This document shows, piece after piece, positions 36,559-59,068 of a stretch of DNA of 64,000 nucleotides. A program made the position numbers and the translations under genes. Numbering within the stretch: position 1 is the first letter of the stretch; the number at the start of each line of letters is the position of its first letter. The notes below the pieces were generated by a model, which had not been told where the DNA came from, did not search any database, and worked only from the letters and a program-made list of their open reading frames with translations. This DNA is from an uncultured Actinomycetes bacterium (lineage in GTDB: Bacteria; Actinomycetota; UBA4738; HRBIN12): NCBI GenBank assembly GCA_963797635.1, contig CAWCPZ010000003.1, positions 67,339 to 131,338 on the forward strand, written 5' to 3'.

Positions 36559-36609
36559 CCCCGGCGGGGGCTCGATCGGCGGCGGCGGTTCGCTTCCCGG
36601 CGTCCGCCG

Positions 36610-37482
36610 TCACTCCGAGGCCTCCCGCTCATCGTCGAGCGCGTGCTCGGCCGCGAGCAACCGGCGACCCCGCAGGTCGTACCAGTAGCCCGACGGCAAC
36701 GAGTGCAGCACCGCGCCCGACACCATGAGCGGTTTATACCCCTTCCCGCGATAGGCGTCCGTCTTGACGTGCGCCCCGTCCACGATCGTGACCGCCCCGC
36801 GCCCGATCACATGCAGCGTCTGATCGCTGAACACGACGGCGCAGGTGTCCTCGTCGATCCCGATCCCGAGCAGCGAGGGAGACTGCGCCACCAGGGCGAG
36901 CAGGCGTCCGATCCGGCCACGCTCGCCGAAATGCTGGTCGATCACCAGGCCCGACAGGATCCCCAGCCCGGCCGACAGCTGGACCATCCGGTTCTTCGGC
37001 GTGGGCCCGGCGTTGCCGAAGGCCACCATGTGGCTCGCCATGGCGCTCGCCCCCGCGCTGGTGCCCGCAAGCACCGCCCCACGGTCGTGGGCCAGGAACA
37101 GCGCGTCGCCGAGCTTCGTGCCCGCCACCACCTGCGTGAGCCGCGACTGGTTGCCACCGGTGAGGTAGACCCCGGTGGCGTCACGGAGCGCCGCCGTCAT
37201 GGCGGGATCGTCGGCCTCGTCCCGATCGTCGGGTCGTACTCCGGTGACGGTGCCGATCCCCAGGTCGGTGAACAGCGCCCGATAGACCTCCGTGGCTTGA
37301 TCGCCCAGCGAGGACGCCGTCGAGATGACCACCACGTGCCCGTCCTCGCCGCCGGCGAACTTCGCGAACCGGGACAGGATCACCTTGTCGCGGACCTTGT
37401 CCTCGGCACCGCCGATCACCATCACCGGTCCGGCTCCCAAGCCGGGCACCGAGGAGAGGCTGCGTTCGCCCTGGTCGGTCAT
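36610..37482 (-). CDS. cphB: Cyanophycinase (peptidase S51)
   Basis: VMVIGGAEDK ..., GTSAGASAM (Ser nucleophile), and a Glu in GAVTIVDGAHV, as in CphB. ATG at 37482. The track ORF is extended upstream because the frame has no stop. Confidence 0.85.
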   Translation of the reverse strand: MTDQGERSLSSVPGLGAGPVMVIGGAEDKVRDKVILSRFAKFAGGEDGHVVVISTASSLGDQATEVYRALFTDLGIGTVTGVRPDDRDEADDPAMTAALRDATGVYLTGGNQSRLTQVVAGTKLGDALFLAHDRGAVLAGTSAGASAMASHMVAFGNAGPTPKNRMVQLSAGLGILSGLVIDQHFGERGRIGRLLALVAQSPSLLGIGIDEDTCAVVFSDQTLHVIGRGAVTIVDGAHVKTDAYRGKGYKPLMVSGAVLHSLPSGYWYDLRGRRLLAAEHALDDEREASE

Positions 37483-37534
37483 CGCAGGGAAGTGTAGCCC
37501 CGGTGCGCGGCCGAACCGCAGAGCGAGCGCGGGT

Positions 37535-37786
37535 TCACGTCCGCGCCAGGAAGAGCGCGTCGTGCTCACCGGCGTCGACGAGCCCGTCGATCCCCTCGGC
37601 CACGTACACCTCGAACCCAAGCTCGTGACGCACCGTGGCATCACCGGGTTCGGCGCGATCGGTGAGCTCTGCGCGGATGGCGGCGCCGTCGGCCACCAGC
37701 CGAACCCGGGCATCGGGGTTGAAGCGTCGTGCCGCGGCATCGCTGCGAGCCAGCGCCTCGGCAGCACGGTCCGTGAACTCGAGCAT
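37535..37786 (-). CDS. HesB/IscA-like small protein (cysteine-less)
   Basis: MLEFTDRAAEAL...VRLVADGAAIRAELTD resembles the IscA N-terminal fold but lacks the Cys triad; 83 aa. 52 nt upstream of cphB on the same strand. Confidence 0.4.
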   Translation of the reverse strand: MLEFTDRAAEALARSDAAARRFNPDARVRLVADGAAIRAELTDRAEPGDATVRHELGFEVYVAEGIDGLVDAGEHDALFLART

Positions 37787-38330
37787 CCGCTCGATGCTAC
37801 GAGGAGAACGGCTTCAGAGGAGACAGCCTCAGCGAGGCCGGAACGGGTCACCGGCCGAATGGGTCGCCGGCCGAATGGGTCGCGGGAGTCGGTTCCCCAG
37901 AACCAGGCTCCCACGCCCAGGCCCACGAACACCCCGACGATGCCCGCCCCCACCGCGACGGCCGGCAGCCACACCGCGGCGACCACCAGGGTGAGGGTGA
38001 CGATCGCGGCGCCCATCTCCCACGCGTCCAGTCGGTGGTTCATGACATCCTCCTGATCGGTTCGGGCCGTGCCCTCGTGCAGCCGGCGACGCGTTCTCCC
38101 GCGCCGATCAGCCTCGACCCCAGCATCCGGCGGAGCCTCCCCGGCCGCTCCCGGCGATGTCCGCCGTGCGCCCGGAGGTCCTCGGCGCGGATCTTCAACA
38201 GCTCCGGCGCCGTTGGTCCCAACATGTGCGGCACGTTGTCCACCTCCTCGATCGGAATCCGTAACCGTTATCAGTGTTATATCGGTTTCAGGTGTAACCA
38301 GTCAAGTGGATTTCGGAAGTTTCCTGCGGT

Positions 38331-38993
38331 ATGATGCCGAGCATGGGTGAGCCGACCGAACGAACGACCGTCATGAGCACGGCGCCGTGGGGGCACGAGG
38401 ACAGCGGGGTCAACCCGGCGCCGGGCGACCTCGAAACCGTTCGCAGCTTCCTGTCGCTGCACGACCACGCCCCCGGCATCGACGACAGCTTCCCGCCCAC
38501 GCCCCCCACGCTCGAGCGGTGGATCCGCGATCGAGGCCTGGTCGAGGCGGGCGAGCCGATCACGGACGAGGACCTGGTGTGGGGCCTGGAGGTGCGCGAG
38601 GCGTTGATGACCAAGATCGACGAGAACGCCGGTGCGCCCCGCGACCACGACGCGATCGAGCGCTTGAACCACGCCGCCCAGGACACCGGTCTGCAGCTGT
38701 GCTTCGGGTGCGACGAGAACCGGCTGCACACCGAGGTCGGCGGCATGCGCGGCGCGATCGGACGCGTGTTGGGGACGGCGTTCCTCGCCGATCTCGACGG
38801 GTCGTTCCATCGGTTGCGACAGTGCCAGGACCCGACGTGCACCGCGGTCTTCTTCGACCACAGCAAGAACCACTCGGGCAAGTGGTGCTCGATGGCGGTC
38901 TGCGGGAACCGGAACAAGGTGCGCAAGTTCCGGGAGCGCGAACGAACCGCGAAGGCGGGCGAGGCCATCGGCCCGGGGTCCGCGGCGCGGTGA
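38331..38993 (+). CDS. CGNR zinc-finger protein (ABATE domain plus zf-CGNR)
   Basis: C-terminal CQDPTCTAVFFDHSKNHSGKWCSMAVCGNRNKVRKFRER is the zf-CGNR signature. Confidence 0.85.
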   Translation: MMPSMGEPTERTTVMSTAPWGHEDSGVNPAPGDLETVRSFLSLHDHAPGIDDSFPPTPPTLERWIRDRGLVEAGEPITDEDLVWGLEVREALMTKIDENAGAPRDHDAIERLNHAAQDTGLQLCFGCDENRLHTEVGGMRGAIGRVLGTAFLADLDGSFHRLRQCQDPTCTAVFFDHSKNHSGKWCSMAVCGNRNKVRKFRERERTAKAGEAIGPGSAAR

Positions 38994-39909
38994 CGACGAT
39001 CGAACTCCCCCTGGTCGGGGCCGGAGGCGAGCCCGTGGACCTGGCCCGGACCCTGAACTCCCACGGGTTCGTCGACCTGGCGCCCATGGCGCTCGACGAA
39101 GCGGCGCTCCTGCTCGAGTGCACGATCCGGGTGCCGGGCAGGCTCACCGCGCCGCGTCCGGATCGGCCAGGGGTCGCCGGGGAACGCACGGGTCGAGGTG
39201 CTGGGGCGCCGGCCGGGCGCCCGGCGCGCTCGAGGCCGTCCGCACCACTTCGCGCCACGTGCTGCGGCTGGACCAGGATCTCTCGGCGTTCTACGACCAG
39301 GCTCGCGAGGATCCCGACCTGGCCTGGGCCGCCACCGGCGCCGGTCGCATGATCCAGAGCCCGACGGTGTTCGAAGACGTCATCAAGACGGTGTGCACCA
39401 CCAACTGCACGTGGTCGGCCACCGTGCGCATGGTCAACGCGTTGGTGTCCGAACTCGGCGACCCCGCCACGGGCGGCAGCGGCCCGCTCACCAACGCCTT
39501 CCCCACCCCGGACGTGATGGCCTCCGCCCCCGAGGCCTTCTACCGCGACGTGGTGCGCGCCGGCTACCGCGGCGCCTATCTGATCGAGCTCTCCCGCCGG
39601 GTGGCCTCGGGCGAGGTCGACCTCGAAGCGCTGGCCGCCGCCGGCCCCGACGAACGCTCGGACGATGAGCTGGAGCAACAGCTCCTTGCCCTGCCCGGCG
39701 TCGGCCCCTACGCCGCCGCGCACATCATGATGACGATCGGCCGGAACTCCCGGCTGATCCTCGACTCGTGGACCCGGCCCACCTACGCGAAGGCCCTCGG
39801 GCGGACCAAGCCCGTGTCCGATGCCGCGATCCGGCGACGGTTCCGCCCCTACGGCGAGCAGGCGGGGTTGGCGTTCTGGCTGTTCGTCACGCGCGATTGG
39901 GTCGACTAG
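38990..39909 (+). CDS. HhH-GPD DNA glycosylase (AlkA-like); frameshifted around 39150-39250
   Basis: GTG at 38990 overlaps the CGNR stop (GTGA). N-terminal domain (TTIELPLVGAGGEPVDLARTLNSHGFVDLAPM) is in frame A. The HhH-GPD part (VLRLDQDLSAFYDQARED ... ALPGVGPYAAAHIMM ...) is in the frame of ORF 39118..39909. Confidence 0.65.
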
Positions 39910-47979: not shown

Positions 47980-49466
47980 CACCAGAACCTCAGCTTCTTG
48001 CGGTCGAGCGCGGCCCACGCGTCGGGCCAGCGGCGGCGCGCCCGTCGCTGGAGGCGGGCCTCGATCGCGCCGAGCTCGCCCGCCGTGAACGCCACCCGTG
48101 CGCTGGTCCCGGCGGCCTGATCACGCAGCCACGCTGCGGCCACCACCGAATCCTGGTGTTCCCCGAGTTCGTCCTGCAGCACACCGGCCCGCTCGGCGAA
48201 CCTGCGGGCCGGCTTGCCCACCACAGGGGCCACCGCCTCTGCGGCATACCGGACGCGTTTGGCGCGGATCCGCGCTGCATGCAGGTCGGCATCGGCCGAT
48301 CCCGGATCCAGCGACTCGCACGCGCGCTGCAAGTGATCCCACGGCCCCGACACGAGCGAGTCGATCACGTCGACGGCGGGCGTGGACGCCACATCGTCGA
48401 GGACCGCGGGCGCCGTGGCGGCCGCGACGAGACGATCGAGCAGCACGGCGTACCGGTCCTCTCGCAGGGCCGACAGCATGGCCGCGCGCGCTTCGTCGCG
48501 TTGGGCGCGCAACCGATCGAGGAGCTTGCGCATCGTGACCGCGTCCTCGTCGGGGAGCATCGAGGTGTGCGCCCGCAACCGTTCGCCGAGCACGTCGAGA
48601 TCGCGGACGGCTCCGAGCTCGTCGCCGAGCCAGCGCAGTTCGTCCCGGAGCTGGGCGTCCCATGTCGGCTCCAGCAACGTTCGGAACGTCCGGAGGTCCG
48701 AGCGGAGCCGCCGGGTCGCCACCCGCGCCTGGTGCACGCCTTCCAGGTCGCTGCCGAGCCGGACGGCGGCGTCGTGTCGGATCAACCGGACCACCGAGGC
48801 CGACAGGGCGGTGCGGATCATCGCCTCGACGGTCTTGGGCCGCTTGCCGTGCTGCTCCACCTCGGGCGGTTCGGCCGCCAACGGCATGAGGGCCCGGACG
48901 TACTTCGGCAGGGCCGGTTCGGCGCGTTGTGCCCCTTCGGCCACCAGCCGTTTGATCACCGGGTCGATGATCGCTTCGTCGGCATCCTGGGTGAGTTCGG
49001 CTTCGAGCTCCCGGAAGCGCGCCACCACTCGTCGCCCGTCCAGCACCGAGACCTCGTCGTCCACCACCTCGGCGGCCGGTCTGGCCTCGGCATCGAGCAG
49101 CCGCGTGGTCCGGCGGACCGTCTGCAGCCGCACGGCGAGCGACACCGGTTCTTGCCGCAGGTATCCCCGGAGCAGGTCGATCGCGGGAGCCGGCGGACGG
49201 CCCGGGCCCGCCTCGAAGTGATGCTCCTCGCGCGCCAGCGTGTCGGAGAGGCCCGCGGCGGGGAGCTTGACGGTCCAGCCCTCGCCGGTCCGGTAGCGCA
49301 GGGAGCATCCCCAGCGAGCCAGCCGCAGGTCCTGCGTGTCGTAGTAGCTGGTGACGAACCGCTGGACGCCCTCGCCTTCGGCGGAGAAGCCGTCGAGGAC
49401 CTCGGACAGGTCGGGAAGATGGAACAGCGGACCGACGGTGAGCTTGACCTCGCGCTCCAGGTTCAC
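47979..49466 (-). CDS. CYTH (triphosphate tunnel) plus CHAD domain protein
   Basis: GTG start at 49464-49466 overlaps the ppk stop (GTGA). N-terminal EREVKL...E.YYDT CYTH motifs and a long helical CHAD domain (HQARVATRRLRSDLRTF...). Confidence 0.75.
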   Translation of the reverse strand: MNLEREVKLTVGPLFHLPDLSEVLDGFSAEGEGVQRFVTSYYDTQDLRLARWGCSLRYRTGEGWTVKLPAAGLSDTLAREEHHFEAGPGRPPAPAIDLLRGYLRQEPVSLAVRLQTVRRTTRLLDAEARPAAEVVDDEVSVLDGRRVVARFRELEAELTQDADEAIIDPVIKRLVAEGAQRAEPALPKYVRALMPLAAEPPEVEQHGKRPKTVEAMIRTALSASVVRLIRHDAAVRLGSDLEGVHQARVATRRLRSDLRTFRTLLEPTWDAQLRDELRWLGDELGAVRDLDVLGERLRAHTSMLPDEDAVTMRKLLDRLRAQRDEARAAMLSALREDRYAVLLDRLVAAATAPAVLDDVASTPAVDVIDSLVSGPWDHLQRACESLDPGSADADLHAARIRAKRVRYAAEAVAPVVGKPARRFAERAGVLQDELGEHQDSVVAAAWLRDQAAGTSARVAFTAGELGAIEARLQRRARRRWPDAWAALDRKKLRFW

Positions 49467-51539
49467 CGCTCGCCAGCCCGCTCCACGGCGAGCTCCTGCA
49501 GCGCCCGGTGGGCGTTCACGCCGCGGCTCGTCGGCACCTTGTGCCATCGTCCATCGGGATCGAGCTCCCATGCGAGCTCGTCGTCGGCGAGTTCGATCGC
49601 CAGCACCTCGGCCAGGCGCTCCTGCAGGGCGCCGTCCTCCACGGGCGTGAGGGCCTCGACGCGACGGTCGAGGTTGCGCGGCATCCAGTCGGCCGATCCG
49701 ATCAGGTAGTCGAACCCGCGCGACGTGCTCCCGAACCGGTACACCCGGGAATGCTCCAGGAACCGGCCCACGATGGAGCGGACCCTGATGCCCTCGGACA
49801 GACCCGGGACCCCGGGACGCAGACAGCAGATGCCGCGGATCAGCAACTCGACGCGGACGCCCGACTGCGACGCTTCGTAGAGCGCATCGATCAGGTCGCT
49901 GTCCACGAGGCTGTTCATCTTCAGCACGATGGAGCCGTCGTCCTGCTCCATCTCCCGGTGGACCAGGGCCGCGAGGCCGGGGCGCAGGGTGACCGGGGCC
50001 ACCAGCAGCTTGCGGTATTCGCGCTGCCGGCTGTAGCCGGTGAGCAGGTTGAACAGGTCCGTGAGATCCGCGCCCAGATCGGGGTCGGCCGTCAACAGCC
50101 CGATGTCTTCGTACAGTCGCGCGGTCGTGGAGTTGTAGTTGCCCGTCCCCAGGTGCGCGTACCGTCGGATGCCGTCGTTCTCCCGGCGCACCACCAGGCA
50201 GGTCTTCGCGTGCGTCTTGAGGCCCACCATGCCGTACACCACGTGCACCCCAGCCGTTTCCAGCGTTCGTGCGAACGAGATGTTGGCTTCCTCGTCGAAT
50301 CGCGCCTTCAGCTCGACGAGGGCCACCACCTGCTTGCCGGCGTCGGCGGCCCGCACCAGGGAGCGGATGATCGGGCTGTCGGCCGAGGTGCGGTAGAGGG
50401 TCTGCTTGATCGCGAGGACGTCGGGGTCCCGCGCGGCCTGATCCACGAACGCCGCGACGGAGGATTCGTAGGAGTCGTAGGGGTGATGCACCAGGATGTC
50501 GCCGCGCCGCACCGCCTCGAACACGTCCGGCAGGCCCTCCTGCGACTGGAGCTCGGGCGGCGTGACCGGCGTCCACGGTTCATCCTTCAGGTCGGCTCGA
50601 TCGAGGTTCACGAAGAACCAGAGGTCGCCGAGCGCGAGGAGTCCGTCGACGACGTAGACCTGGGATTCCTCCAAGCTCAGCTCGCGCATCAGGACCTCGC
50701 GCACCTCGCCGCTCATCGTGTCGTCGATCTCCAGCCGGATCGGCGTGGCGCCTCGTTGCCGCCGTTGCAGGACGGTCTCGATCGCGGCCAGGAGATCGTC
50801 GGCTTCGTCCTCTTCGACCTCGACGTCGGCGTCGCGCGTCACGCGGAAGAAGTGGTGGGACAGCAGGTCCATGCCGGGGAACAGCTGGTCCATGTGCGCC
50901 GCGATCACCTCTTCGAGCGGCACGAAGCGCTCGCCGTCGGGCAGCTCGATGAACCGCGGCAGCGATCGGTGGCACCTTCACGCGCGCGAACTTGCGCACG
51001 CCCGTCATCGGGTCGCGCACGGCCGCCGCGACGTTCAACGACAGGCTCGAGATGTAGGGGAACGGATGCGCCGGATCCACCGACAGCGGCGTGAGCACCG
51101 GGAAGATCCGTTCGGAGAACCGGCGGCCCAGGAACGCCGCGGTCGTCCTCGCCGAGTTGATCCCAGTGGGCGAGGCGGATGCGCTCCTTCTCCAGCGCGG
51201 GGAGTCAGGTCGGTGGACAGCACGCCTTCGACCCTCGCCTGCAGCCCGTCGAGCCGCTCGCGGATCGCCTCCAGCTGTTCGGGCGGGCGTCATCCCGTCG
51301 GGCGTGACCACGGCGACCCCCGCCTCGACCTGCTCCTCCAGACCGGACACCCGGACCTGGAAGAACTCATCGAGGTTCTGCGTGTAGATCGCCAGGAACT
51401 TGACCCGTTCCAGCAGCGGCCGGGCGGGGTCCTCGGCGAGCGCCAGCACCCGCGCGTTGAACTCCAGCCAGCTCAGCTCACGGTTGAGGAAGCGGGCTGA
51501 GGTGGCGGGCATCGCCTCGGGGAAGGTCTCGGCGCTCAT
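49463..51539 (-). pseudogene. ppk: Polyphosphate kinase 1, disrupted by at least 3 single-base indels between ~50930 and ~51300
   Basis: C-terminal 486 aa intact (ORF 49463..50923: ...GLKTHAKTCLVVRRE..., HLGTGNYN). The N-terminal 200 aa (MSAETFPE...SARFLNRELSWLEFNARVL...) switches frames several times. Example: gtgaaggtgccaccgAtcgctgccgcgg needs one base fewer to read VKVPPSLPRF. Confidence 0.75.
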
Positions 51540-51659
51540 GGGGTCGACATCGTAGAGAGTCCCAGCCTCGCAGGCAATCGCACGCTCGTCCACATCGCGG
51601 ATACCTTGCGGTGCAACCTGTCATCGTGGCAGACACGTCATCGATGCCCAGTGGGCGCG

Positions 51660-52388
51660 TCAGTCGACGAACTTGTACCCGAGCCCGCGCACGGTGACGA
51701 CGTGGGTCGGTTCGTGGGGATCGGTTTCGATCTTCTGGCGGAGCCGCTTCACGTGCACGTCGAGGGTCTTCGTGTCGCCCACGTAGTCCGCCCCCCAGAC
51801 CTCCTCGATCAGGAACAGCCGTGTGAGCAACCGATCCTTGCGTCGGAGGAACGCCTCGAGCAGTTCGAACTCCTTGGGTGGGAACCCCACCGGCGCGCCC
51901 CGCACCACGACCTCGTGCCGCGACACATCCATCTCGATGGGACCACCGCGGAGCACCTCTTCTTCGGGCAGGGCGCTGTCGGCTCGCATCCCGGCACGAC
52001 GCAGGTGCGCTCGGACCCGAGAGACCAATTCACGCACCGAGAACGGCTTCGTGACGTAGTCGTCGGCTCCCAACTCCAGACCGGTGACCTTGTCGGCCTC
52101 CGAGTCCTTCGCCGTCACCATGATGATGGGAACGTCGGACTCCGCCCGGATGGCGCGGCACACGTCGAGGCCCGAGAGCTCGGGAAGCATCAGATCCAAG
52201 ATCACGAGCGCGGGACGCTCGGATCGGAACCGGTCGATCGCACGTCGCCCATCGGTCGCGACCGACACCGAGAACCCTTCCCGTTCGAGGTTGTACCGGA
52301 CCGAGTCGGCCAACGATTCCTCGTCCTCCACGATCAGGACGAGCGGGGCCGACTCCGGATGCTCGTCGGCGATGGAGAGATCGCTCAT
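51660..52388 (-). CDS. OmpR/PhoB-family response regulator (PhoP/RegX3-like)
   Basis: Receiver domain (LVLIVEDEESL...ILDLMLP...) and winged-helix (...VVTVRGLGYKFV); intact 242 aa. 4-nt overlap with the downstream phoU. Confidence 0.9.
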   Translation of the reverse strand: MSDLSIADEHPESAPLVLIVEDEESLADSVRYNLEREGFSVSVATDGRRAIDRFRSERPALVILDLMLPELSGLDVCRAIRAESDVPIIMVTAKDSEADKVTGLELGADDYVTKPFSVRELVSRVRAHLRRAGMRADSALPEEEVLRGGPIEMDVSRHEVVVRGAPVGFPPKEFELLEAFLRRKDRLLTRLFLIEEVWGADYVGDTKTLDVHVKRLRQKIETDPHEPTHVVTVRGLGYKFVD

Positions 52389-53067
52389 TCGATCGTGACC
52401 GGATGGGAGGCATCGGTGAACTCGCGGAACTCGCCCGTCAGCAGGAACCCGACCTGCTCCGCGATGTCGACGGCGTTGTCGCCCACGCGTTCGAGCGCAC
52501 GCGCCGCCATGTTCATGTGCAGTCCCCAGTCGAGGCTCCGAGGATCGTCCGCAAGCTTCAGCGCTTCGAGGTGGGTGGCTCGGTTGAGCCGGTCAACGGG
52601 GTCGTCCATCGTGGGCACCTTGAGCGCCAGCTCGAGGTCCCGCCGTCCGAACGCTTCCATCGCCGTTCGGATCATCGGTGACGACGAGGGTCGCCCATCT
52701 CCTCGATCTGCTGGCGCATCGATTCGCTCCCGGACTCGTCCTTGGTCCGGAGGTACAGCTTGGCGACGTTGACCGCTTGATCGCCGACCCGCTCGAGGTG
52801 CAGGTTGCAGTGCATGATCGCCGAGATCAGCCGAAGGTCGGCGGCGACGGGCGACTGCAGCGCCAGGACCGACAGGACATCGCTGTCGATCTTCAGGTAG
52901 AGCTCGTCGATCCGATCGTCGTCGTCGATCACGCCCTGCGCCTTCGCGTCGTCGTGCTGCACCAGCGCCTCGACCGACGCTGCACCGAGTTGCCGGCGAG
53001 CTCGCCCATGCTCAGCAGGTCCATCTCGATCTGCTCCAGCGACTCGTGGAACGGTCCCGCTGCTCAT
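52385..53067 (-). pseudogene. phoU: Phosphate signalling complex protein PhoU, at least 3 indels
   Basis: PhoU segments (FHESLEQIEMDLLSMGELAGNSV / SVEALVQHDDAKAQGVIDDDDRIDELY... / ...ALERVGDNAVDIAEQVGFLLTGE) lie in three different frames (ORFs 52672..53067 and 52385..52675 plus an unlisted frame). Confidence 0.7.
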
Positions 53068-53883
53068 CCGAATCTCCCCGTCACGTAGTCCTCGGTCCGC
53101 TGATCGGTCGGGTTGGTGAAGATCGATTCCGTGCGGTCGAACTCGACGATCGTGCCGGTCCGGCTGCCGTCGTCATGGACCTCCACGGTGAAGAACGCGG
53201 TGCGGTCGCTGACCCGCGCGGCCTGCTGCATGTTGTGGGTCACGATGACGATCGTGTAGTCGGCCACCAGCTCCTGCATCAGGTCCTCGATCTTCGCGGT
53301 GGCGATCGGGTCGAGCGCCGAGCACGGCTCGTCCATCAGGATCACGTCGGGCTTGCGTGGCGATCGCCCGCGCGATGCACAGACGCTGCTGCTGGCCACC
53401 CGAGAGCGCGAGGCCCGATTCCTTCAGCTTGTCCTTCACCTCGTCCCACAGCGCCGCCTTGCGCAGGCTCTCCTCGACGAGCTCGTCCATGTTGCCCTTG
53501 TAGCCGGCGATCTTCGGGCCGAACGCGATGTTGTCGTAGATCGACTTCGGGAACGGGTTCGGCTTCTGGAACACCATGCCGATGCGCCGGCGAACCTCGA
53601 CCGGGTCCACGCGCTCGTCGTAGAGGTCGACGCCGTGGTACAGCAGCGTGCCTTCGACACGAGCGCCTTCGATCAGGTCGTTCATCCGGTTGAGGCAGCG
53701 CAGGAACGTGGTCTTGCCGCACCCGGACGGCCCGATCAGCGCGGTGATCTCGTTCTTCAGGATCGGCAGGTTGATGTCGCGGATCGCCCGGAAGTCGCCG
53801 TAGAACACGGCGAGGTCGGCCGTCGAGAACACGACCTCGCGCGCGGCCTCATCGGCCTCGGTGACGCTCGAGGGTTTCACCAT
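53064..53883 (-). pseudogene. pstB: Phosphate ABC transporter ATP-binding protein, one indel near 53350-53380
   Basis: Walker [11 protein letters not shown]-loop and signature [16 protein letters not shown] are in ORF 53173..53883. Walker B/D-loop/H-loop ([15 protein letters not shown]...[10 protein letters not shown]) are in ORF 53064..53399. The join (gccacgCaagcccgac) needs one base fewer. Confidence 0.8.
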
Positions 53884-53958
53884 GAGCTGGGGCCCATCAT
53901 CGGTGACGCGAGGTCGCCGGCGTCAGGTCGGTCGTGTCCATCGGTTCACCACTTTCGG

Positions 53959-54870
53959 TCATAGCGGTTCCTCAGCAGGATCGCGGCGAGGTTCACGACG
54001 AGGATGATCACGAGCAGCACGACGATCGCTGCGGCCGTGTTGGCCTTCCAGTCCTCGCCGGCCAGCCGGGACCATGAGAAGATCTGCGTGGGCAGCGCCG
54101 TGTACTTGCCCTGCAGGACCTCGAGCGGCGATCGCCGACGACGACGTGGAGAGGTAGCCGGTGACGGCCCCCACCAGCAGCAGCGGCGCCGTCTCGCCGA
54201 ACGCCCGGGCCAGCGACAGGATCAGGCCCGTGAAGACCCCGGGCGCCGCGTACGGAAGCACGTGGCTGCGGACGACCTCCCACCGCGTGGCGCCGACACC
54301 GTAGGCGGCCTCGCGCACGCTCTTCGGGCACGGCCCGCAGCGCCTCCATCGTCACGAGGATGATGATCGGCAGCACCAGCACCGACAGCGTCAGGCCGCC
54401 CGAGATGTAGCTCCGGCCGAACGTGTCGGGGCCGGTGAAGGCGCGCAGCGCCTGCACGAACACCACCAGCCCGAGGATGCCGTAGACGATCGACGGCACG
54501 CCGGCGAGGTTGCGGATGTTGGTGGTGAGCAGCCGGTTGAGGCGGGTGTCGCGCGCGTACTCCTGCAGGTAGATCGCCGCGGCGATGCCGAGCGGCATCG
54601 CCACCACCGCGACGAAGCCGATCAGGATCAGCGAGCCGACGATGCCCTGGCGCACCCCCGCTCGGCTGGCAGGCGGGAGACATCGCTGGTCACGAAGTCG
54701 CCGAGCCTGCGTCGACAGCACCGGCCAGGCGGCCGACAGCGCCGTGCCCAGCAGGACGATCAGGATCAGCGAGCGACAGGAGCAGGGACAGCAGCAGCGC
54801 CCCCTGGAAGACGCGGCCCGCGAGATCGCGCTTGCGAGCCGCGGAGGGCGAGCTCCACCGTGCCGCGGAC
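53959..54870 (-). pseudogene. pstA: Phosphate ABC transporter permease PstA, several indels; boundaries approximate
   Basis: PstA fragments are spread over ORFs 54008..54721 (GIVGSLILIGFVAVVAMPLGIAAAIYLQEYARDTRL...[13 protein letters not shown]) and 53959..54318 ([50 protein letters not shown]). Confidence 0.6.
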
Positions 54871-54879
54871 CTGCGCGGT

Positions 54880-55851
54880 CGGGGCGATCGCGGCCATCAG
54901 TAGTCCCTCCGGACCCGGCGGACGAAGCGCTCGGACAGCAGGTTCAAGCCCGAGCGTCATCGCGAACAGCAGCAGGCCGACGAAGTAGAGCGCATCGAAC
55001 GCGTTGAGCCCGGTGCTGCTCTTCACCTGGTCCGAGCCGATCGCGAGCGAGGCGATCGCGCCGGTCATCGTCTGGCCGGGCTCCAAGGGGTTCGAGATGG
55101 CGGCGTGGCCGAGCCCGTCGCGCCGGCCGCGATCGCCACCACCATCGTCTCGCCGATCGCCCGAGAGAACCCGAGGATCAGCGACGCCACGATGCCGGAG
55201 ACCGCCGCGGGGAAGACGACCTTCGTCGTCACCGTCCGCCGGCGCGCGCCGATCCCGTAGGCGGCCTCCCGCAGCGCGCCGGGCACGGCGTACATCGCGT
55301 CCTCGGCCACCGAGGCCACCAAGCGGGATCGTGAGGATCCCGACGCCGATGCCGGCCGCCATGATCGTGAACGTGCTCGACGTCGCGAACAGCGTCTGCA
55401 CGATGGTCGGGTTGATCACCTGCAGCGCGAAGTAGCCGAGGACCACGCTCGGGATGCCCGGCGAGCGTCTCGAGGATCGGCTTCAGGCGCCGGCGGGTCC
55501 TCGGGCTCGCGTACTCGGACAGGTACATCGCCGCCCCGAGGCCGAGCGGTGTCGGCGATCACCATCGCGATCACGCGACACCTCGATCGTGCCGATGAAG
55601 AGCGTCGGGATGTCGAACTCTCCCTGTCGCGGCGACCACTGGCCGCTCCACAGCGACGAGAGCTCCACGTGGGACAGGAACGAGATCGCCTGGCCGAGCA
55701 GCGCGAGGACGATCGCGACGCTGATCGACCAGCGAGATCCCCGCGGCCGCGAGGAGCACGCCGCGGACGACGCCTTCCTTGCGCCGCCGCTTCGCGCTGC
55801 CCCGCAAGCGTGGCGATCGACGGCCCCGGTCTCACCCGTCGCCGTGACCAT
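54880..55851 (-). pseudogene. pstC: Phosphate ABC transporter permease PstC, at least 5 indels; boundaries approximate
   Basis: Conserved PstC segments are in at least four frames: LSHVELSSLWSGQWSPRQGEFDIPTLFIGTIEVS (55483..55851), [23 protein letters not shown] (55229..55528), [66 protein letters not shown] (55065..55322), [24 protein letters not shown]...NAFDALYFVGLLLFAMTL (54766..55446). Confidence 0.6.
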
Positions 55852-55936
55852 GCTGCGGCTACCCTACCCGCGGTCCGCAGGCGCGGCGAGGCCGGACGGC
55901 GATCGCCGTCCGGCCCAGGTGCCCGCGGTGCGTCCG

Positions 55937-56977
55937 ATCATGCCGAGGCCGACTCCCAGGCCGATCGGGTGGCCTCGATGCGGTCGGCCGGCAGCGCGAT
56001 GTAGCCGACCTGCTCCAGCAACCCGTCCGTCGCCAGCGAGTCGTCCGTCAGGTAGAAGTCGACGTAGGCCTTCACCTCGGGCCGGGCCATCGCCTCGTTG
56101 CTCACGTAGATGTAGAGCGAACGCGACAGCGGGTAGGAACCGTCGGAGATCGTGTCCGCCGACGGCGCCGACGCACCCGTCGCCGCCGTCGACCTGGATC
56201 TCCTTGATCTGGTCGCCCGCCTGCTCGGCGAACGCGAACCCCACGAAACCGAGCGAGCTCGGGGAGCCCTCCATCGCCGTGATGATCACGTTGTCGTTCG
56301 GCGAAGGCTGGTAGTCGCTGCGGAGCGCGGCGGCTTCGTCCTCGGGCACGCCCTGCGCGATCGCGGTGTCTTCGATCCCCGCGAGGTCGATGAAGGCGTC
56401 GTAGGTCCCCGACTCCTCTCCGGGCGCGGTGATCTCCAGCGGGGCATCAGGGAACCCACCGGTGCCCCCGACCTGCTGGCGCGAGCGAGTCGGCGCCGTT
56501 CCAGGTGTCGATCCCGTCGGACTCCGGGCCGAACAGCGCGTAGAGGTCGCCGAAGTTCAAGCAGGTCACGTCGGCGTTCTCGGGGTTCGTCATCACCGTG
56601 ACGCCGTCCAAGCCGACCTCGAGTTCCGTGTACTCGATGCCGGCCTTCTGGCAGGCCTTCGCCTCCTCGTCCTCGATCGGACGCGAAGCGTCGGCGATGT
56701 CGATCTCGCCCTTGCAGAAGAGTTCGAAGCCGTCGCCGGTCCCGGGACCGTCGACGCTGATCTGCACGTCGGGGTTGTCGGCATTGAACTCCTCGGCGAC
56801 CACGGAGGAGATCGGTTCGACCGTCGAGGAGCCGGAGATCGTGATCGAACCCGACAAGGCGTCGGTCCCGCCCGTGTCGCCGGAACCGCCACCGTCGTCG
56901 CTGCCGCACGCCGCTGAGACGAGCGTGAGGGCGAGCAGGGCCACGAGCGCGCCCCCCAACCTGCGGTGCTTCACCAT
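55937..56977 (-). pseudogene. pstS: Phosphate-binding lipoprotein PstS, at least 3 indels
   Basis: Strong RBS GGAGGAGGAA before the ATG at 56977. Lipobox LTLVSAACGS. SGSSTVEPI, ...GAIGY-like segments. The C-terminus (ADTISDGSYPLSRSLYIYVSNEAMARPEVKAYVDFYL...*) is reconstructed in a third frame ending at TGA 55937-55939. Confidence 0.65.
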
Positions 56978-57046
56978 CGGTTCCTCCTCCATCGGTGCGT
57001 TCGGGGCGGAGCCTAGGGAGCAGGGGTGGACGCCTAGTGACCTCAA

Positions 57047-57179
57047 GATGAACGAGCGGTGAACGAGGACGGGCATGGAGAACGCCGGATGAACGCCCAG
57101 GTCCAAGCCCACAGGGGCCGCGATCACCGTCCAGAACCGTCGATCGGCGGAACCTCTGATGAACGACAGGTGAACACCG
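57047..57179. promoter_or_regulatory. PHO-box-like 11-nt direct-repeat units (core GTTCACC on the pstS strand) in the pstS / sensor-kinase divergent intergenic region
   Basis: Contiguous 11-mers gatgaacgagc|ggtgaacgagg (57047-57068), ggagaacgccg|gatgaacgccc (57077-57098) and gatgaacgaca|ggtgaacaccg (57158-57179). The reverse complement (CGTTCACC / CGTTCATC) matches the actinobacterial PhoP/RegX3 repeat-unit core. Confidence 0.55.
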
Positions 57180-57203
57180 CCGTCGGCCTCCTACACTGCG
57201 GCC

Positions 57204-58373
57204 ATGGAGGGGACCGCCGTGATCGTCGTGATCGTGGGTGGGATCGCGGTCGCCGCGGCAGGCTTCGTGATCGGTCGACGATCGCTGTCCATGAGCATGC
57301 GAAGCCTCCACGAGGAGGTGAAGCGTTCCTCCGACGCCCTCGTGCGGCGCGAGCGCTCCAGCGAAGACGAGCGCCACGTGCAGGACCTGATCCTGGGAAC
57401 GATGCAGGAAGGCGTGCTGCTCTTCGACGGTGGATGGCGAACGGCGTTCGCGAACGAAGCGCTCGAGCGCCACCTCGCCGGGAGGCCGACCGCCGTCGCT
57501 CAGCTCTATCCTCCGGCCCTCCGCGAGATGGTCAAGGAGGTCAGCGAGCACCGTCGTGCGTCGACGATCGAACTCGAACGCACCGAGCCCACGCGATGGT
57601 TGCGGGCAACCGCCGCCCCCGCCGGCAGCGACGGCTCGATCCTGTTGGTGGTCACCGACATCACCGAGACCCGGCGCATCGAGGCCGTCCGCCGGGACTT
57701 CGTCGCCAACGCCTCCCACGAACTGAAGACCCCGGCAGCTTCGATCCAGGCCGTGGCCGAGACCCTCGCGTCGGTGGCCGAACACGATCCCGCCGCCGTC
57801 TCACGGTTCGCCTCTCAGCTCGAGCGGGAAGCGATGCGACTCTCGAGGATCGTCGCCGATCTGCTCGACCTGTCGCGGCTCGAGTCCGGCAGCGACCTGG
57901 GCGACCCGATCCGGTTCGACCAGGTGGTCCACGACGAACTCGACCGCTTCGAGGAGGCCGCCCGCGAGGCCGGGTTGACGGTCGTGGCGACCGATGCGGG
58001 ACCCGCGGTGGTCTCGGGTTCGATGCGCGACCTCTCGCTCTTGGTCCGCAACCTGATCGACAACGCGATCCGATACACCCGGCCCGGCGGCACGATCACG
58101 GTGTCGCTGGAGAGCGGCAACGGCACGGTGCAGCTGGTCGTCGGCGACGACGGCATGGGCATCCCTTCGCGCGACCTGCCTCGGGTGTTCGAGCGGTTCT
58201 ACCGCGTCGATCGGGCTCGTTCGCGCGAGACCGGCGGCACGGGGCTCGGACTGGCGATCGTGAAGCACGTCGCCGAGAACCACGGCGGCACGGTCGACGT
58301 GGTGAGTGAACTGAACCGTGGATCGACGTTCACCGTGCGGCTCCCGGCCGCCCGTGCCACGGCCTCGCCCTGA
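57204..58373 (+). CDS. Sensor histidine kinase (SenX3/PhoR-like): TM anchor, PAS, HisKA, HATPase_c
   Basis: N-terminal TM helix (VIVVIVGGIAVAAAGFVIG). PAS-like region. H-box (ANASHELKTP). N, G1 and G2 boxes (NLIDNAIRYT, GDDGMGI, GGTGLGLAIV). Confidence 0.85.
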   Translation: MEGTAVIVVIVGGIAVAAAGFVIGRRSLSMSMRSLHEEVKRSSDALVRRERSSEDERHVQDLILGTMQEGVLLFDGGWRTAFANEALERHLAGRPTAVAQLYPPALREMVKEVSEHRRASTIELERTEPTRWLRATAAPAGSDGSILLVVTDITETRRIEAVRRDFVANASHELKTPAASIQAVAETLASVAEHDPAAVSRFASQLEREAMRLSRIVADLLDLSRLESGSDLGDPIRFDQVVHDELDRFEEAAREAGLTVVATDAGPAVVSGSMRDLSLLVRNLIDNAIRYTRPGGTITVSLESGNGTVQLVVGDDGMGIPSRDLPRVFERFYRVDRARSRETGGTGLGLAIVKHVAENHGGTVDVVSELNRGSTFTVRLPAARATASP

Positions 58374-58399
58374 GCGGACGACCCGTATGCTGCTCCGCG

Positions 58400-59068
58400 A
58401 TGACCACCCTGTTCCTGATCCGCCACGGGCTCACCGCGCAGACCGGCGCGAACCTGTACGGCCGCACCCGTGGGATCCCGCTCGACGAACGCGGCCGGCG
58501 CCAGGCGATCCACCTCGCCGAACGGTTCCGCACGGTCAAGCTCACCGCGATCTACTCGAGCCCGCTGGAACGCTGCGTGCAAACCGTCGAACCGTTGGCG
58601 GTGGCCCAGCGCCTGCCGATCCAGGAGCGCGACGGCCTGATGGAGATGGACGTCGGCGCGTGGACGGGGCGCACGCTGAAGAGCCTGCGCCGCACGAAAC
58701 GGTGGGGCGAGATCCAGGGATCGCCCTCGACCTTCCGCTTCCCCGAGGGCGAGGGGTTCGCCGAAGCGCTCGAGCGGATCGAGGGCGAGATCCGGTCGAT
58801 CGCCAAGCGGCACCCGCGAGGTCGCGTGGCGGTGGCCACCCACGGCGACATCGTTCGGATGCTCGTCGCGCACTTCACGGGCGCCCCGCTGGATGCCTTC
58901 CAGCGCACGGTCATCGACACCGCGGGCGTCTCCGTGGTCAGCCTGCACAAGGGCTCGCCGCACGTGCATCTGGTGAACGACACCGGCGGCCTGGATCGGT
59001 TCGGGCCGGCCGGTACGCCACCGCCCTGGGAGGTCGTCGCCGACCCCAACGAGCCACCGGGAACCTGA
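58400..59068 (+). CDS. Histidine phosphatase family protein (GpmB/PGAM-like)
   Basis: LIRHGLT (RHG motif) plus a catalytic His later (VATHGDIV). Confidence 0.8.
   Translation: MTTLFLIRHGLTAQTGANLYGRTRGIPLDERGRRQAIHLAERFRTVKLTAIYSSPLERCVQTVEPLAVAQRLPIQERDGLMEMDVGAWTGRTLKSLRRTKRWGEIQGSPSTFRFPEGEGFAEALERIEGEIRSIAKRHPRGRVAVATHGDIVRMLVAHFTGAPLDAFQRTVIDTAGVSVVSLHKGSPHVHLVNDTGGLDRFGPAGTPPPWEVVADPNEPPGT

What the first reader, a model, noticed from the sequence alone, without database searches (positions are those of the whole stretch)
50900..56977. Every gene of the ppk-phoU-pstBACS phosphate module carries one or more single-nucleotide indels, while the neighbouring regulators stay intact
ppk has at least 3 indels in its first 600 nt, phoU at least 3, pstB 1, pstA at least 3, pstC at least 5, pstS at least 3. 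The encoded peptides are otherwise highly conserved and recognisable in alternating frames, with no accumulation of stops or obvious substitutions. The response regulator in the middle (51660..52388), the sensor kinase (57204..58373) and CYTH/CHAD/mutT1 are intact. That is roughly 20 indels in 6 kb against about 1 per 5-10 kb elsewhere. Either this stretch is a low-quality or low-coverage patch of the assembly, or the whole high-affinity Pi-uptake and polyP locus is being inactivated. The latter would be unusual.
Basis: seen in the sequence. Interest (0 to 1): 0.6.

Follow-up and report, generated by a model that had tools for sequence, protein, structure and literature searches.

The report
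Strain-mixing artefact breaks phosphate operon
The roughly 28 frameshifts in the phosphate-uptake and polyphosphate genes are almost certainly consensus errors made where two co-occurring strains differ, not gene decay, so the operon is very probably intact in the real organism.

Summary
Measured against the closest intact relatives, ppk, phoU, pstB, pstA, pstC and pstS carry 28 frame-breaking indels between 50963 and 56478: 25 single-base insertions and 3 small deletions. I found 5 such events in 44 kb examined elsewhere in the window.

The indels are not decay. Substitutions are mainly at third codon positions (dN/dS 0.04-0.16), and no stop codon appears in the ORFs restored by removing the indels. 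The repaired proteins pass NCBIfam cut-offs. The same divergent allele is intact in a JGI contig.

The decisive signature is where the insertions sit. In the first alignment, 19 of 21 window-private insertions lie at a site where two population alleles differ, usually C versus G. The window carries both bases side by side. Random insertions do this 12% of the time (P = 4.5e-16; a full re-alignment simulation gives 11.6%). The window's five sporadic insertions elsewhere show the same signature (4 of 5, P = 2e-6).

The insertions are dense here because the sensor kinase-pst-phoU stretch is a true polymorphism hotspot (dS up to 0.74, against 0.03-0.06 in flanking genes).

Verdict: an artefact of collapsed strain variation in a long-read-type consensus. 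The underlying allelic hotspot is real but modest. Reads were not available.

The parts
49466..51539 (-). ppk (polyphosphate kinase 1). The C-terminal 504 codons are one ORF (49466-50977). The first ~580 nt are broken by four +1 insertions at 50963, 51136, 51203 and 51288.
   Evidence: tblastn is 99.8% identical over residues 192-690 of the intact 690-aa orthologue from L093. TIGR03705 scores 635.6 bits against a cut-off of 465.85. Indels are listed.
51660..52388 (-). OmpR/PhoB-family response regulator (RegX3/PhoB-like), intact. Its start overlaps the phoU stop by 4 nt.
   Evidence: It is 100% amino-acid identical to the orthologue in 9 other contigs, with 11 synonymous and 0 non-synonymous differences from L003. 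No NCBIfam equivalog cut-off is reached; the best matches are MtrA, YycF and PhoB.
52385..53067 (-). phoU, with 4 indels: +1 at 52676 and 52693, -1 at 52978, -2 at 53055.
   Evidence: The repaired 227-aa protein scores 187.2 bits on TIGR02135 (cut-off 130.25).
53064..53962 (-). pstB, with 2 insertions: +1 at 53355 and 53911.
   Evidence: The repaired 298-aa protein scores 398.2 bits on TIGR00972 (cut-off 343.2).
53946..54897 (-). pstA, with 6 indels: +1 at 54129, 54326, 54710, 54770 and 54835; -1 at 54668.
   Evidence: The repaired 315-aa protein scores 239.6 bits on TIGR00974 (cut-off 193.45).
54897..55866 (-). pstC, with 10 insertions: +1 at 54949, 55093, 55104, 55323, 55456, 55554, 55574, 55727, 55805 and 55824.
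   Evidence: compared with the intact 319-aa pstC of JGI contig L090. The partly repaired protein scores 209.8 bits on TIGR02138 (cut-off 196.45).
55938..56992 (-). pstS (lipoprotein-type phosphate-binding protein), with 2 insertions: +1 at 56166 and 56478.
   Evidence: compared with the intact 350-aa pstS of L090 (2.3% mismatches). The repaired protein scores 219.1 bits on TIGR02136 (cut-off 206.6).
57204..58373 (+). SenX3/PhoR-like sensor histidine kinase, intact and transcribed divergently from pstS. It carries the pure 'allele B' and is the most divergent gene of the hotspot.
   Evidence: It is 98% identical to P0001 (JGI, cluster of 49 sequences). dS is 0.74 against allele A. WIN matches B at nearly all A/B-diagnostic sites between 56.1 and 58.5 kb.
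52800..58500 (.). Allelic-divergence hotspot. The window follows allele B in the kinase and most of pstS (56.1-58.5 kb). At 52.8-56.1 kb it matches A at some diagnostic sites and B at others. It is pure allele A in the response regulator to the left.
36214..39139. Five sporadic window-private +1 insertions of the same kind outside the finding, at 36214 (splits cphA), 36556, 37809, 37877 and 39139.
   Evidence: Four of the five carry both population alleles in tandem (null 0.026, P = 2.4e-6).

Best explanation
The frameshifts are consensus artefacts; they are not mutations. The window comes from an assembly with the error profile of long-read metagenome contigs. Two haplotypes of one uncultured soil actinobacterial species were collapsed in this stretch. 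One is a B-like haplotype that supplies most bases. The other is the common allele A.

At a fraction of the sites where the two haplotypes differ (about 5%), the consensus step emitted both bases in tandem instead of choosing one. These sites are mostly C/G transversions at third codon positions. Each such event adds one base and breaks the frame.

The errors cluster here because the kinase-pstSCAB-phoU-ppk 5' stretch is a true polymorphism hotspot. The response regulator escapes because it has few variable sites. The kinase escapes, I infer, because its alleles differ by about 25% at the nucleotide level, too much to be piled up together.

What is shown: the position, type and allele content of the indels, their statistics, and the purifying-selection pattern. 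What is inferred: that both haplotypes were present in the source sample. A further inference concerns the consensus model. A polisher whose error model makes deletions cheap and C<->G substitutions rare would prefer 'CG' as the best explanation of a C/G mixture.
For: 1. Against intact references there are 25 single-base insertions and only 3 deletions.
2. In an alignment with 11 related contigs, all 21 window-private +1 insertions in 41.7-62.4 kb fall inside 50.9-57.0 kb. Nineteen of them have the inserted base equal to one population allele and the neighbouring base equal to another allele of the same polymorphic column. The analytic null is 0.119, giving P = 4.5e-16. A full re-alignment simulation of random insertions gives 30/259 = 11.6%, against 14/16 for the real sequence run through the same pipeline.
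3. By eye in the contexts, the second base is allele A's base at most of these sites (for example 55093, 55104, 55323, 55554, 55727, 54834, 54709, 54325, 53356, 52692, 51288, 51136). At 50963/50968 and 51203/51205 the window keeps both halves of a compensating A/B indel pair. The four insertions not private in that alignment were judged the same way.
4. Sixteen of the 19 are C/G pairs, against 43% among the 519 SNPs (P = 2.4e-4).
5. The window's five sporadic insertions at 36-39 kb show the same signature (4 of 5, null 0.026, P = 2.4e-6). Insertions per SNP are of the same order inside (0.048) and outside (0.015) the region.
6. The signature tracks the type of assembly. Contigs whose names suggest short-read assemblers (L099 k141_, L100 NODE_..cov) and the JGI contigs (L090, L095) have no private insertions. 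Several 'contig_N' ENA assemblies have private insertions that are mostly of the both-allele type: L107 7/7, L104 9/13, L106 6/8, L111 2/2.
7. Two haplotypes of exactly this locus do co-occur in one sample. ERZ25039532 has the 818-kb contig (L001) and a separate 7,074-bp contig spanning kinase to regulator with all genes intact (L008).
8. There is no sign of decay. dN/dS is 0.04-0.16, with codon-position counts such as pstA [10, 2, 66]. Removing the 21 private insertions and filling 4 bases restores full-length pstS, pstB and phoU, and no internal stop appears in the restored ORFs. The repaired proteins pass curated NCBIfam cut-offs.
9. Allele B is intact in L090, with the kinase 98% identical, pstS 350 aa and pstC 319 aa.
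Against: - No reads, coverage or provenance of the window were available. The co-occurrence of allele A in the window's own sample is inferred, not seen.
- Two of the 21 insertions (51285, 56166) fail the formal criterion. So do two of the three deletions (53055, 54668).
- The B-type references for pstA, pstB and phoU (L091, L092) are themselves noisy.
- The alternation between A and B states at 52.8-56.1 kb is also what a natural third lineage would show. It does not prove a chimeric consensus by itself.
- The 5' two-thirds of pstS differ from allele A by about 15% yet carry only two insertions. This needs the extra assumption that allele A reads were not recruited there.
- I cannot name the software step that produced the errors.
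Confidence: 0.9

Rival explanations
1. Genuine inactivation: the strain is losing high-affinity phosphate uptake and polyP synthesis, and the frameshifts are real mutations accumulating in a dispensable module.
For: All six functional genes are hit while the regulators are spared. Some related lineages carry a Pit-type transporter cassette (PhoU_div-PHO4-PhoU_div) next to ppk that could make Pst dispensable. Two other contigs with B-like alleles (L091, L092) also have broken pst genes.
Against: - Twenty-eight indels with no nonsense codon and no large deletion, with dN/dS 0.04-0.16, is not what neutral decay gives. By general expectation, substitutions should outnumber indels many-fold and fall evenly across codon positions.
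- Bacterial decay is biased towards deletions (general knowledge), yet 25 of the 28 events here are +1 insertions.
- Mutations have no reason to fall on population-polymorphic sites and reproduce the other allele's base (P = 4.5e-16).
- The window has no Pit gene and no second pst operon.
- The private indels of L091 and L092 are at different positions and are of the random type.
- The same allele is intact in L090.
Confidence: 0.03
2. An ordinary low-coverage or low-quality patch: random long-read errors (homopolymer miscalls, poor polishing) that happen to be dense here and are unrelated to strain variation.
For: Very noisy contigs of the same population do show scattered random insertions: L002 with 38, L105 with 42 and L109 with 25 private +1 insertions. 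These meet the both-allele criterion at rates from near the null to a few-fold above it. So this error mode exists in this kind of data.
Against: - Only 4 of the 21 insertions are next to an identical base.
- Ninety per cent meet the both-allele criterion, against 12% for random insertions.
- The rest of the window is clean: 0 private indels in 20.3 kb at 3.9-24.2 kb.
- The errors skip the regulator and the kinase, which lie inside the same 7-kb stretch.
- Proximity to GATC, as a proxy for a methylation-linked miscall, is not enriched (7/21 against a 23% background).
Confidence: 0.06

Closest known systems
Consensus errors from collapsed strain heterogeneity (microdiversity) in long-read metagenome assemblies, for example Nanopore + Flye + Medaka pipelines
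   Same: Frame-breaking single-base indels occur in otherwise conserved genes and are concentrated where co-occurring strains differ. Related contigs whose names suggest long-read assemblies show the same error type, and contigs that look like short-read assemblies do not. The Microflora Danica long-read study, which used Flye and one round of Medaka, reports microdiversity as a limit on MAG recovery (PMC12313526).
   Different: The specific signature found here is a SNP rendered as a tandem dinucleotide, +1 biased, with a C<->G preference. I did not find it described in the two literature searches I ran, and I did not read the Strainberry paper. The link between the window and that project is unverified.
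pstSCAB-phoU high-affinity phosphate ABC transporter with a SenX3-RegX3/PhoR-PhoB-type two-component system and ppk1
   Same: All components are present, and the repaired proteins pass the NCBIfam cut-offs for PstS-family, PstC, PstA, PstB, PhoU and PPK1. The gene order pstS-pstC-pstA-pstB-phoU matches the orthologous intact loci.
   Different: The response regulator is fused into the operon after phoU with a 4-nt overlap, while its kinase sits divergently upstream of pstS. In mycobacteria senX3 and regX3 are adjacent (my own knowledge). The kinase and regulator do not reach any equivalog cut-off.
Pseudogene clusters of reductive genome evolution (for example Mycobacterium leprae; my own knowledge)
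   Same: Several adjacent genes of one pathway are interrupted by frameshifts.
   Different: There are no stops, no deletions larger than 2 nt and no relaxed selection. The indels are tied to polymorphic sites.
Hypervariable phosphate-acquisition loci in natural populations (for example pst/pho islands of marine Prochlorococcus and SAR11; my own knowledge, not checked here)
   Same: The kinase-pst region shows deeply divergent alleles (dS 0.3-0.74) among strains whose flanking genes differ by dS 0.03-0.06. There is also presence/absence of a pit cassette.
   Different: This is a soil actinobacterial lineage. Here it is allelic replacement of the same genes rather than gain or loss of the pst genes.

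Membership tests
Collapsed-strain consensus artefact | Indels coincide with sites that are polymorphic in the population. | tested here: met
   19 of 21 private insertions meet the criterion, against a null of 0.119 (P = 4.5e-16). The simulated null is 11.6%. In the flank, 4 of 5 meet it against a null of 0.026.
Collapsed-strain consensus artefact | The extra base reproduces the alternative allele, so both alleles are present in tandem. | tested here: met
   See the contexts. By eye the second base is allele A's at most sites. Both halves of the compensating indel pairs are kept at 50963/50968 and 51203/51205.
Collapsed-strain consensus artefact | Error density follows SNP density along the contig. 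| tested here: met
   There are 0.048 insertions per SNP inside the region and 0.015 in the flank. No insertion falls in the SNP-poor regulator or in the 20 kb at 3.9-24.2 kb.
Collapsed-strain consensus artefact | The same signature appears in other assemblies of the same technology and is absent from short-read assemblies. | tested here: met
   Both-allele fractions are L107 7/7, L104 9/13, L106 6/8 and L111 2/2. L090, L095, L099 and L100 have 0 private insertions. The technology of each contig is inferred from its name only.
Collapsed-strain consensus artefact | Reads show two haplotypes, and no single read carries the extra base. | not testable with these tools
   No reads and no provenance for the window. 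An exact look-up of the window's kinase found no record.
Genuine pseudogene cluster | Relaxed selection: dN/dS approaching 1, with substitutions spread evenly over codon positions. | tested here: not met
   dN/dS is 0.04-0.16, and third-position changes dominate, for example pstA [10, 2, 66].
Genuine pseudogene cluster | Nonsense codons, larger deletions and a deletion bias. | tested here: not met
   There are 25 insertions against 3 deletions of at most 2 nt. The repaired ORFs have no internal stops.
Homopolymer or low-coverage long-read error | Indels lie in runs of the same base and are random with respect to polymorphism. | tested here: not met
   4 of 21 insertions are next to an identical base, and 90% are at polymorphic sites carrying the other allele.
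Programmed frameshift or phase variation | A slippery heptamer or a simple-sequence tract at the shift site, with one or few sites per gene. | tested here: not met
   There are 2-10 sites per gene, and the contexts are neither repeats nor homopolymers. No formal slippery-site scan was run.
pstSCAB-phoU / ppk1 module | Each protein reaches the curated family cut-off. | tested here: met
   Scores against cut-offs: PstS family 219.1/206.6, PstC 209.8/196.45, PstA 239.6/193.45, PstB 398.2/343.2, PhoU 187.2/130.25, and PPK1 635.6/465.85 (C-terminal 504 aa).

The most novel reading that the evidence does not exclude
The tandem 'both-allele' insertions could be real. In this reading, recombination between the deeply divergent A and B alleles of the pst locus would leave mis-repaired heteroduplex sites that retain both strands' bases. 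That would be a mutational footprint of inter-allelic recombination which inactivates the operon in this strain. Without reads I cannot strictly exclude it. It is made very unlikely by two observations. The same signature appears as private events in several unrelated 'contig_N' assemblies. It appears in none of the contigs that look like short-read assemblies of the same population. A separate and much more likely reading is that the kinase-pst allelic hotspot itself is real (about 0.75 probable, interest about 0.3).
Probability: 0.02. Interest if true: 0.8.

Novelty: not a real feature. Interest (0 to 1): 0.1.

Why it matters
Taken at face value, this window would be annotated as a bacterium that has lost high-affinity phosphate uptake and polyphosphate synthesis. 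That would be a striking but false ecological claim.

The analysis gives a simple test that needs no reads. Check whether frameshifting insertions sit on population-polymorphic sites and reproduce the other allele. The test can flag such pseudo-pseudogenes in metagenome-assembled genomes.

The result also shows that artefact density can mark true polymorphism hotspots. Here the hotspot is the phosphate-sensing and uptake locus of an uncultured soil actinobacterium.

Tried and rejected
- Real decay. Rejected on dN/dS, codon-position counts, the absence of stops and the both-allele signature.
- Homopolymer errors. Only 4 of 21 insertions are next to an identical base.
- Methylation-linked miscalls at GATC, which I suspected from the contexts. 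Seven of 21 insertions lie within 6 nt of a GATC, against a 23% background, so there is no enrichment.
- The A/B alternation of SNP states as proof of a chimeric consensus. Rejected as proof, because a natural third lineage gives the same pattern.
- Finding the window's own contig. An exact look-up of its kinase found nothing. None of the fetched contigs is identical to the window; the best is L111 at 99.24%.
- The scan of species-representative genomes.
- Linking the ENA assemblies (ERZ25039xxx) to the Microflora Danica long-read project. No supplementary tables are held, so this stays a lead only.
- A second pst operon or a Pit transporter in the window. None was found.

Full report
**The observation.** The window is about 70% G+C, so coding frames are visible as third-position G+C. 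A frame plot shows the high-GC3 phase jumping every few hundred bases between 50.9 and 56.5 kb, while it is steady on both sides. Stop-to-stop translation shows recognisable pieces of PstS, PstC, PstA, PstB, PhoU and the N-terminal third of PPK on the minus strand, in alternating frames. tblastn with intact orthologues confirms this. pstS, pstA, pstB and phoU are each split over three frames. ppk is split over two frames, and pstC gives overlapping low-identity matches in several frames. The regulator (51660-52388) and the kinase (57204-58373) each match in one piece.

**Relatives.** An exact-protein look-up of the regulator returned nine metagenome contigs of the same species. Most are ENA assemblies with 'contig_N' names and lengths up to 1.4 Mb. 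In most of them the module is intact: pstS 347, pstC 314, pstA 315, pstB 298, phoU 227, regulator 242, ppk 690 aa. Each contig has its own scattered broken genes elsewhere, so these are imperfect assemblies. The scan of species-representative genomes found nothing closer than 66% identity, the best hit being an uncultured Actinomycetes MAG. Names attached to kinase homologues point to uncultured Actinomycetota.

**A divergent allele as well as frameshifts.** The window differs from these contigs ('allele A') by 1-2% in the flanks. The difference rises to 4-9% in phoU, pstB and pstA, 10-20% in pstC and pstS, and about 25% in the kinase. The allele A contigs are nearly identical to one another there.

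After frame correction the substitutions fall overwhelmingly at third positions, and dN/dS is 0.04-0.16. dS falls from 0.74 (kinase) through 0.57 (pstS), 0.31 (pstC and pstA) and 0.16-0.17 (pstB and phoU) to 0.06 (regulator). Most flanking genes give dS 0.03-0.06. This is divergence under purifying selection, not neutral decay.

A search with the window's kinase found a 98% identical protein. Its JGI contig, L090, carries the same 'allele B' with an intact pstS (350 aa) and pstC (319 aa).

**Exact tally.** Measured against the closest intact reference for each gene there are 28 events: 25 single-base insertions, two 1-nt deletions and one 2-nt deletion. The counts per gene are:
- ppk: 4
- phoU: 4
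- pstB: 2
- pstA: 6
- pstC: 10
- pstS: 2

The coordinates are in the parts list.

Window-private indels outside the region number 0 in 3.9-24.2 kb, 5 in 32.6-50.9 kb and 0 in 57.0-62.4 kb. That is a 40-fold lower rate (Poisson P = 6e-35).

**The decisive signature.** In a multiple alignment with 11 related contigs, the window has 21 private single-base insertions between 41.7 and 62.4 kb. All 21 lie inside 50.9-57.0 kb. In 19 of them the inserted base equals one population allele and the adjacent window base equals another allele of the same polymorphic column.

For example, at 55727 allele A reads GTC (Val) and allele B reads GTG (Val), while the window reads GTCG. At 55323 allele A has G and allele B has C, and the window has GC. 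At 50963/50968 and 51203/51205 alleles A and B differ by a compensating pair of indels, and the window keeps the extra base of both.

Random insertions meet this criterion with probability 0.119, so P = 4.5e-16. It gives 30/259 = 11.6%, against 14/16 for the real sequence in the same pipeline. This rules out an alignment-placement bias.

By eye in the contexts, the second base is allele A's at most of these sites. Sixteen of the 19 are C/G pairs, although C<->G changes make up only 43% of the 519 SNPs (P = 2.4e-4).

**The same artefact elsewhere.** The window's five sporadic insertions at 36214 (which splits cphA), 36556, 37809, 37877 and 39139 show the same signature in 4 of 5 cases. Only about 5% of columns are polymorphic there, so the null is 0.026 and P = 2.4e-6.

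Private insertions of several other 'contig_N' contigs are also mostly of this type: L107 7/7, L104 9/13, L106 6/8 and L111 2/2. Very noisy contigs (L002, L105, L109, L110, L092) have many insertions with a much lower both-allele fraction. L109, L110 and L092 are near the local null, while L002 and L105 are only a few-fold above it. Contigs that by their names and sources look like short-read assemblies (L090, L095, L099, L100) have no private insertions. The signature therefore appears tied to the type of assembly, not to the biology. I infer assembly type from contig names and lengths only.

Two haplotypes of precisely this locus do co-occur in one sample. ERZ25039532 contains both an 818-kb contig (L001, with broken pstS and kinase) and a 7,074-bp contig spanning exactly kinase to regulator with every gene intact (L008).

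**No decay underneath.** Deleting the 21 private insertions and filling four missing bases restores full-length pstS, pstB and phoU, and no internal stop appears in the restored ORFs. The remaining breaks are insertions that the alignment shared with noisy contigs. The repaired PstS, PstC, PstA, PstB and PhoU, and the 504-aa PPK ORF, pass the curated NCBIfam cut-offs. Within frame-consistent pieces, identity to same-allele references is 93-100%.

**How it most likely arose (inferred).** Reads of two haplotypes were piled onto one backbone wherever they were similar enough to co-align. At some SNPs the consensus step produced a two-base call instead of choosing one allele.

Suppose the polisher's error model makes deletions in reads cheap and C<->G substitutions very unlikely. 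'CG' then explains a C/G mixture better than either base alone. That would account both for the +1 bias and for the C/G preference. Transitions, being common read errors, would be resolved as substitutions.

The regulator escapes because it has only 11 variable sites. The kinase escapes, I infer, because its alleles differ by about 25% and are too far apart to be collapsed.

The Microflora Danica long-read study used Nanopore R10.4.1 reads, Flye and one round of Medaka, and names microdiversity as a limiting factor (PMC12313526). That is a plausible origin for the ENA contigs, but I could not verify the link.

**What remains open.** I had no reads and no provenance for the window. Two insertions and two of the three deletions do not meet the formal criterion. 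The window's alternation between A and B states at 52.8-56.1 kb would also be seen in a natural third lineage. It is consistent with a mixed consensus but is not evidence for one.

**Comparison with what is known.** The module is an ordinary pstSCAB-phoU operon with ppk1 and a SenX3/PhoR-type kinase. Its mildly unusual feature is that the regulator follows phoU with a 4-nt overlap, while the kinase is divergent upstream of pstS. As a phenomenon, the finding belongs with consensus errors from collapsed strain heterogeneity. It fails every feature of a genuine pseudogene cluster that I could test.

**Verdict.** The interpretation as inactivation is rejected. The artefact interpretation is supported, with a more specific cause than low coverage. 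Interest is low (0.1). The real, modestly interesting residue is the deep allelic divergence of the phosphate-sensing and uptake locus, together with the variable pit cassette in this population.

Noticed in passing
window 52800-58500; L003, L090, L091: The kinase-pstSCAB-phoU stretch is a true allelic-divergence hotspot. dS against the common allele is 0.74 (kinase), 0.57 (pstS), 0.31 (pstC and pstA) and 0.16-0.17 (pstB and phoU), compared with 0.03-0.06 in most flanking genes. dN/dS is low in the pst genes, phoU and ppk (0.04-0.16) and higher in the kinase (0.27). The divergent allele is seen intact in JGI contig L090.
   Followed up: partly
L091 1868-4356; L093 20325-21191; L095 19046-20552; L097 19073-20552: Some lineages of the same species carry a PhoU_div-PHO4 (Pit-type transporter)-PhoU_div cassette between ppk and the response regulator. 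The window and the allele A contigs lack it.
   Followed up: no
L001 and L008 (both from sample ERZ25039532): One sample yields two contigs for this locus. One is an 818-kb contig with broken pstS and kinase. The other is a 7,074-bp contig spanning exactly kinase to regulator with all genes intact. It looks like an alternative haplotype split off by the assembler.
   Followed up: partly
window 36214, 36556, 37809, 37877, 39139: Five further window-private +1 insertions. The one at 36214 splits cyanophycin synthetase (968 aa in relatives) into two ORFs. Four of the five carry both population alleles in tandem.
   Followed up: yes
window 31841-31866 (MMPL gene, 30433-33349): The MMPL transporter gene is split into overlapping ORFs of 622 and 454 aa. 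Against L093 the window has a -1 and a +1 change 25 nt apart in a coiled-coil region. Only one reference covered this spot, so I cannot say which sequence is wrong.
   Followed up: no
window 51660-53067 and 57204-58373: The response regulator is translationally coupled to phoU (4-nt overlap) at the end of the pst operon. Its presumed kinase is transcribed divergently upstream of pstS, so the two-component pair is separated by the whole transporter operon.
   Followed up: no
L002, L105, L109, L110, L092: Some related 'contig_N' assemblies have dozens of private single-base insertions per 20 kb, with a much lower both-allele fraction than the window. Three of them are near the random rate. This is a second error regime, probably low coverage, distinct from the strain-mix type.
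   Followed up: partly
window 59822 (PI3/PI4-kinase-like gene); L001 and L006 versus L003-L005: The window has one extra base relative to L003 at 59822. It is not private to the window. Relatives differ in whether this gene and the next are called as one 419-aa product or as two (249 + 170 aa). It is unclear which state is real.
   Followed up: no
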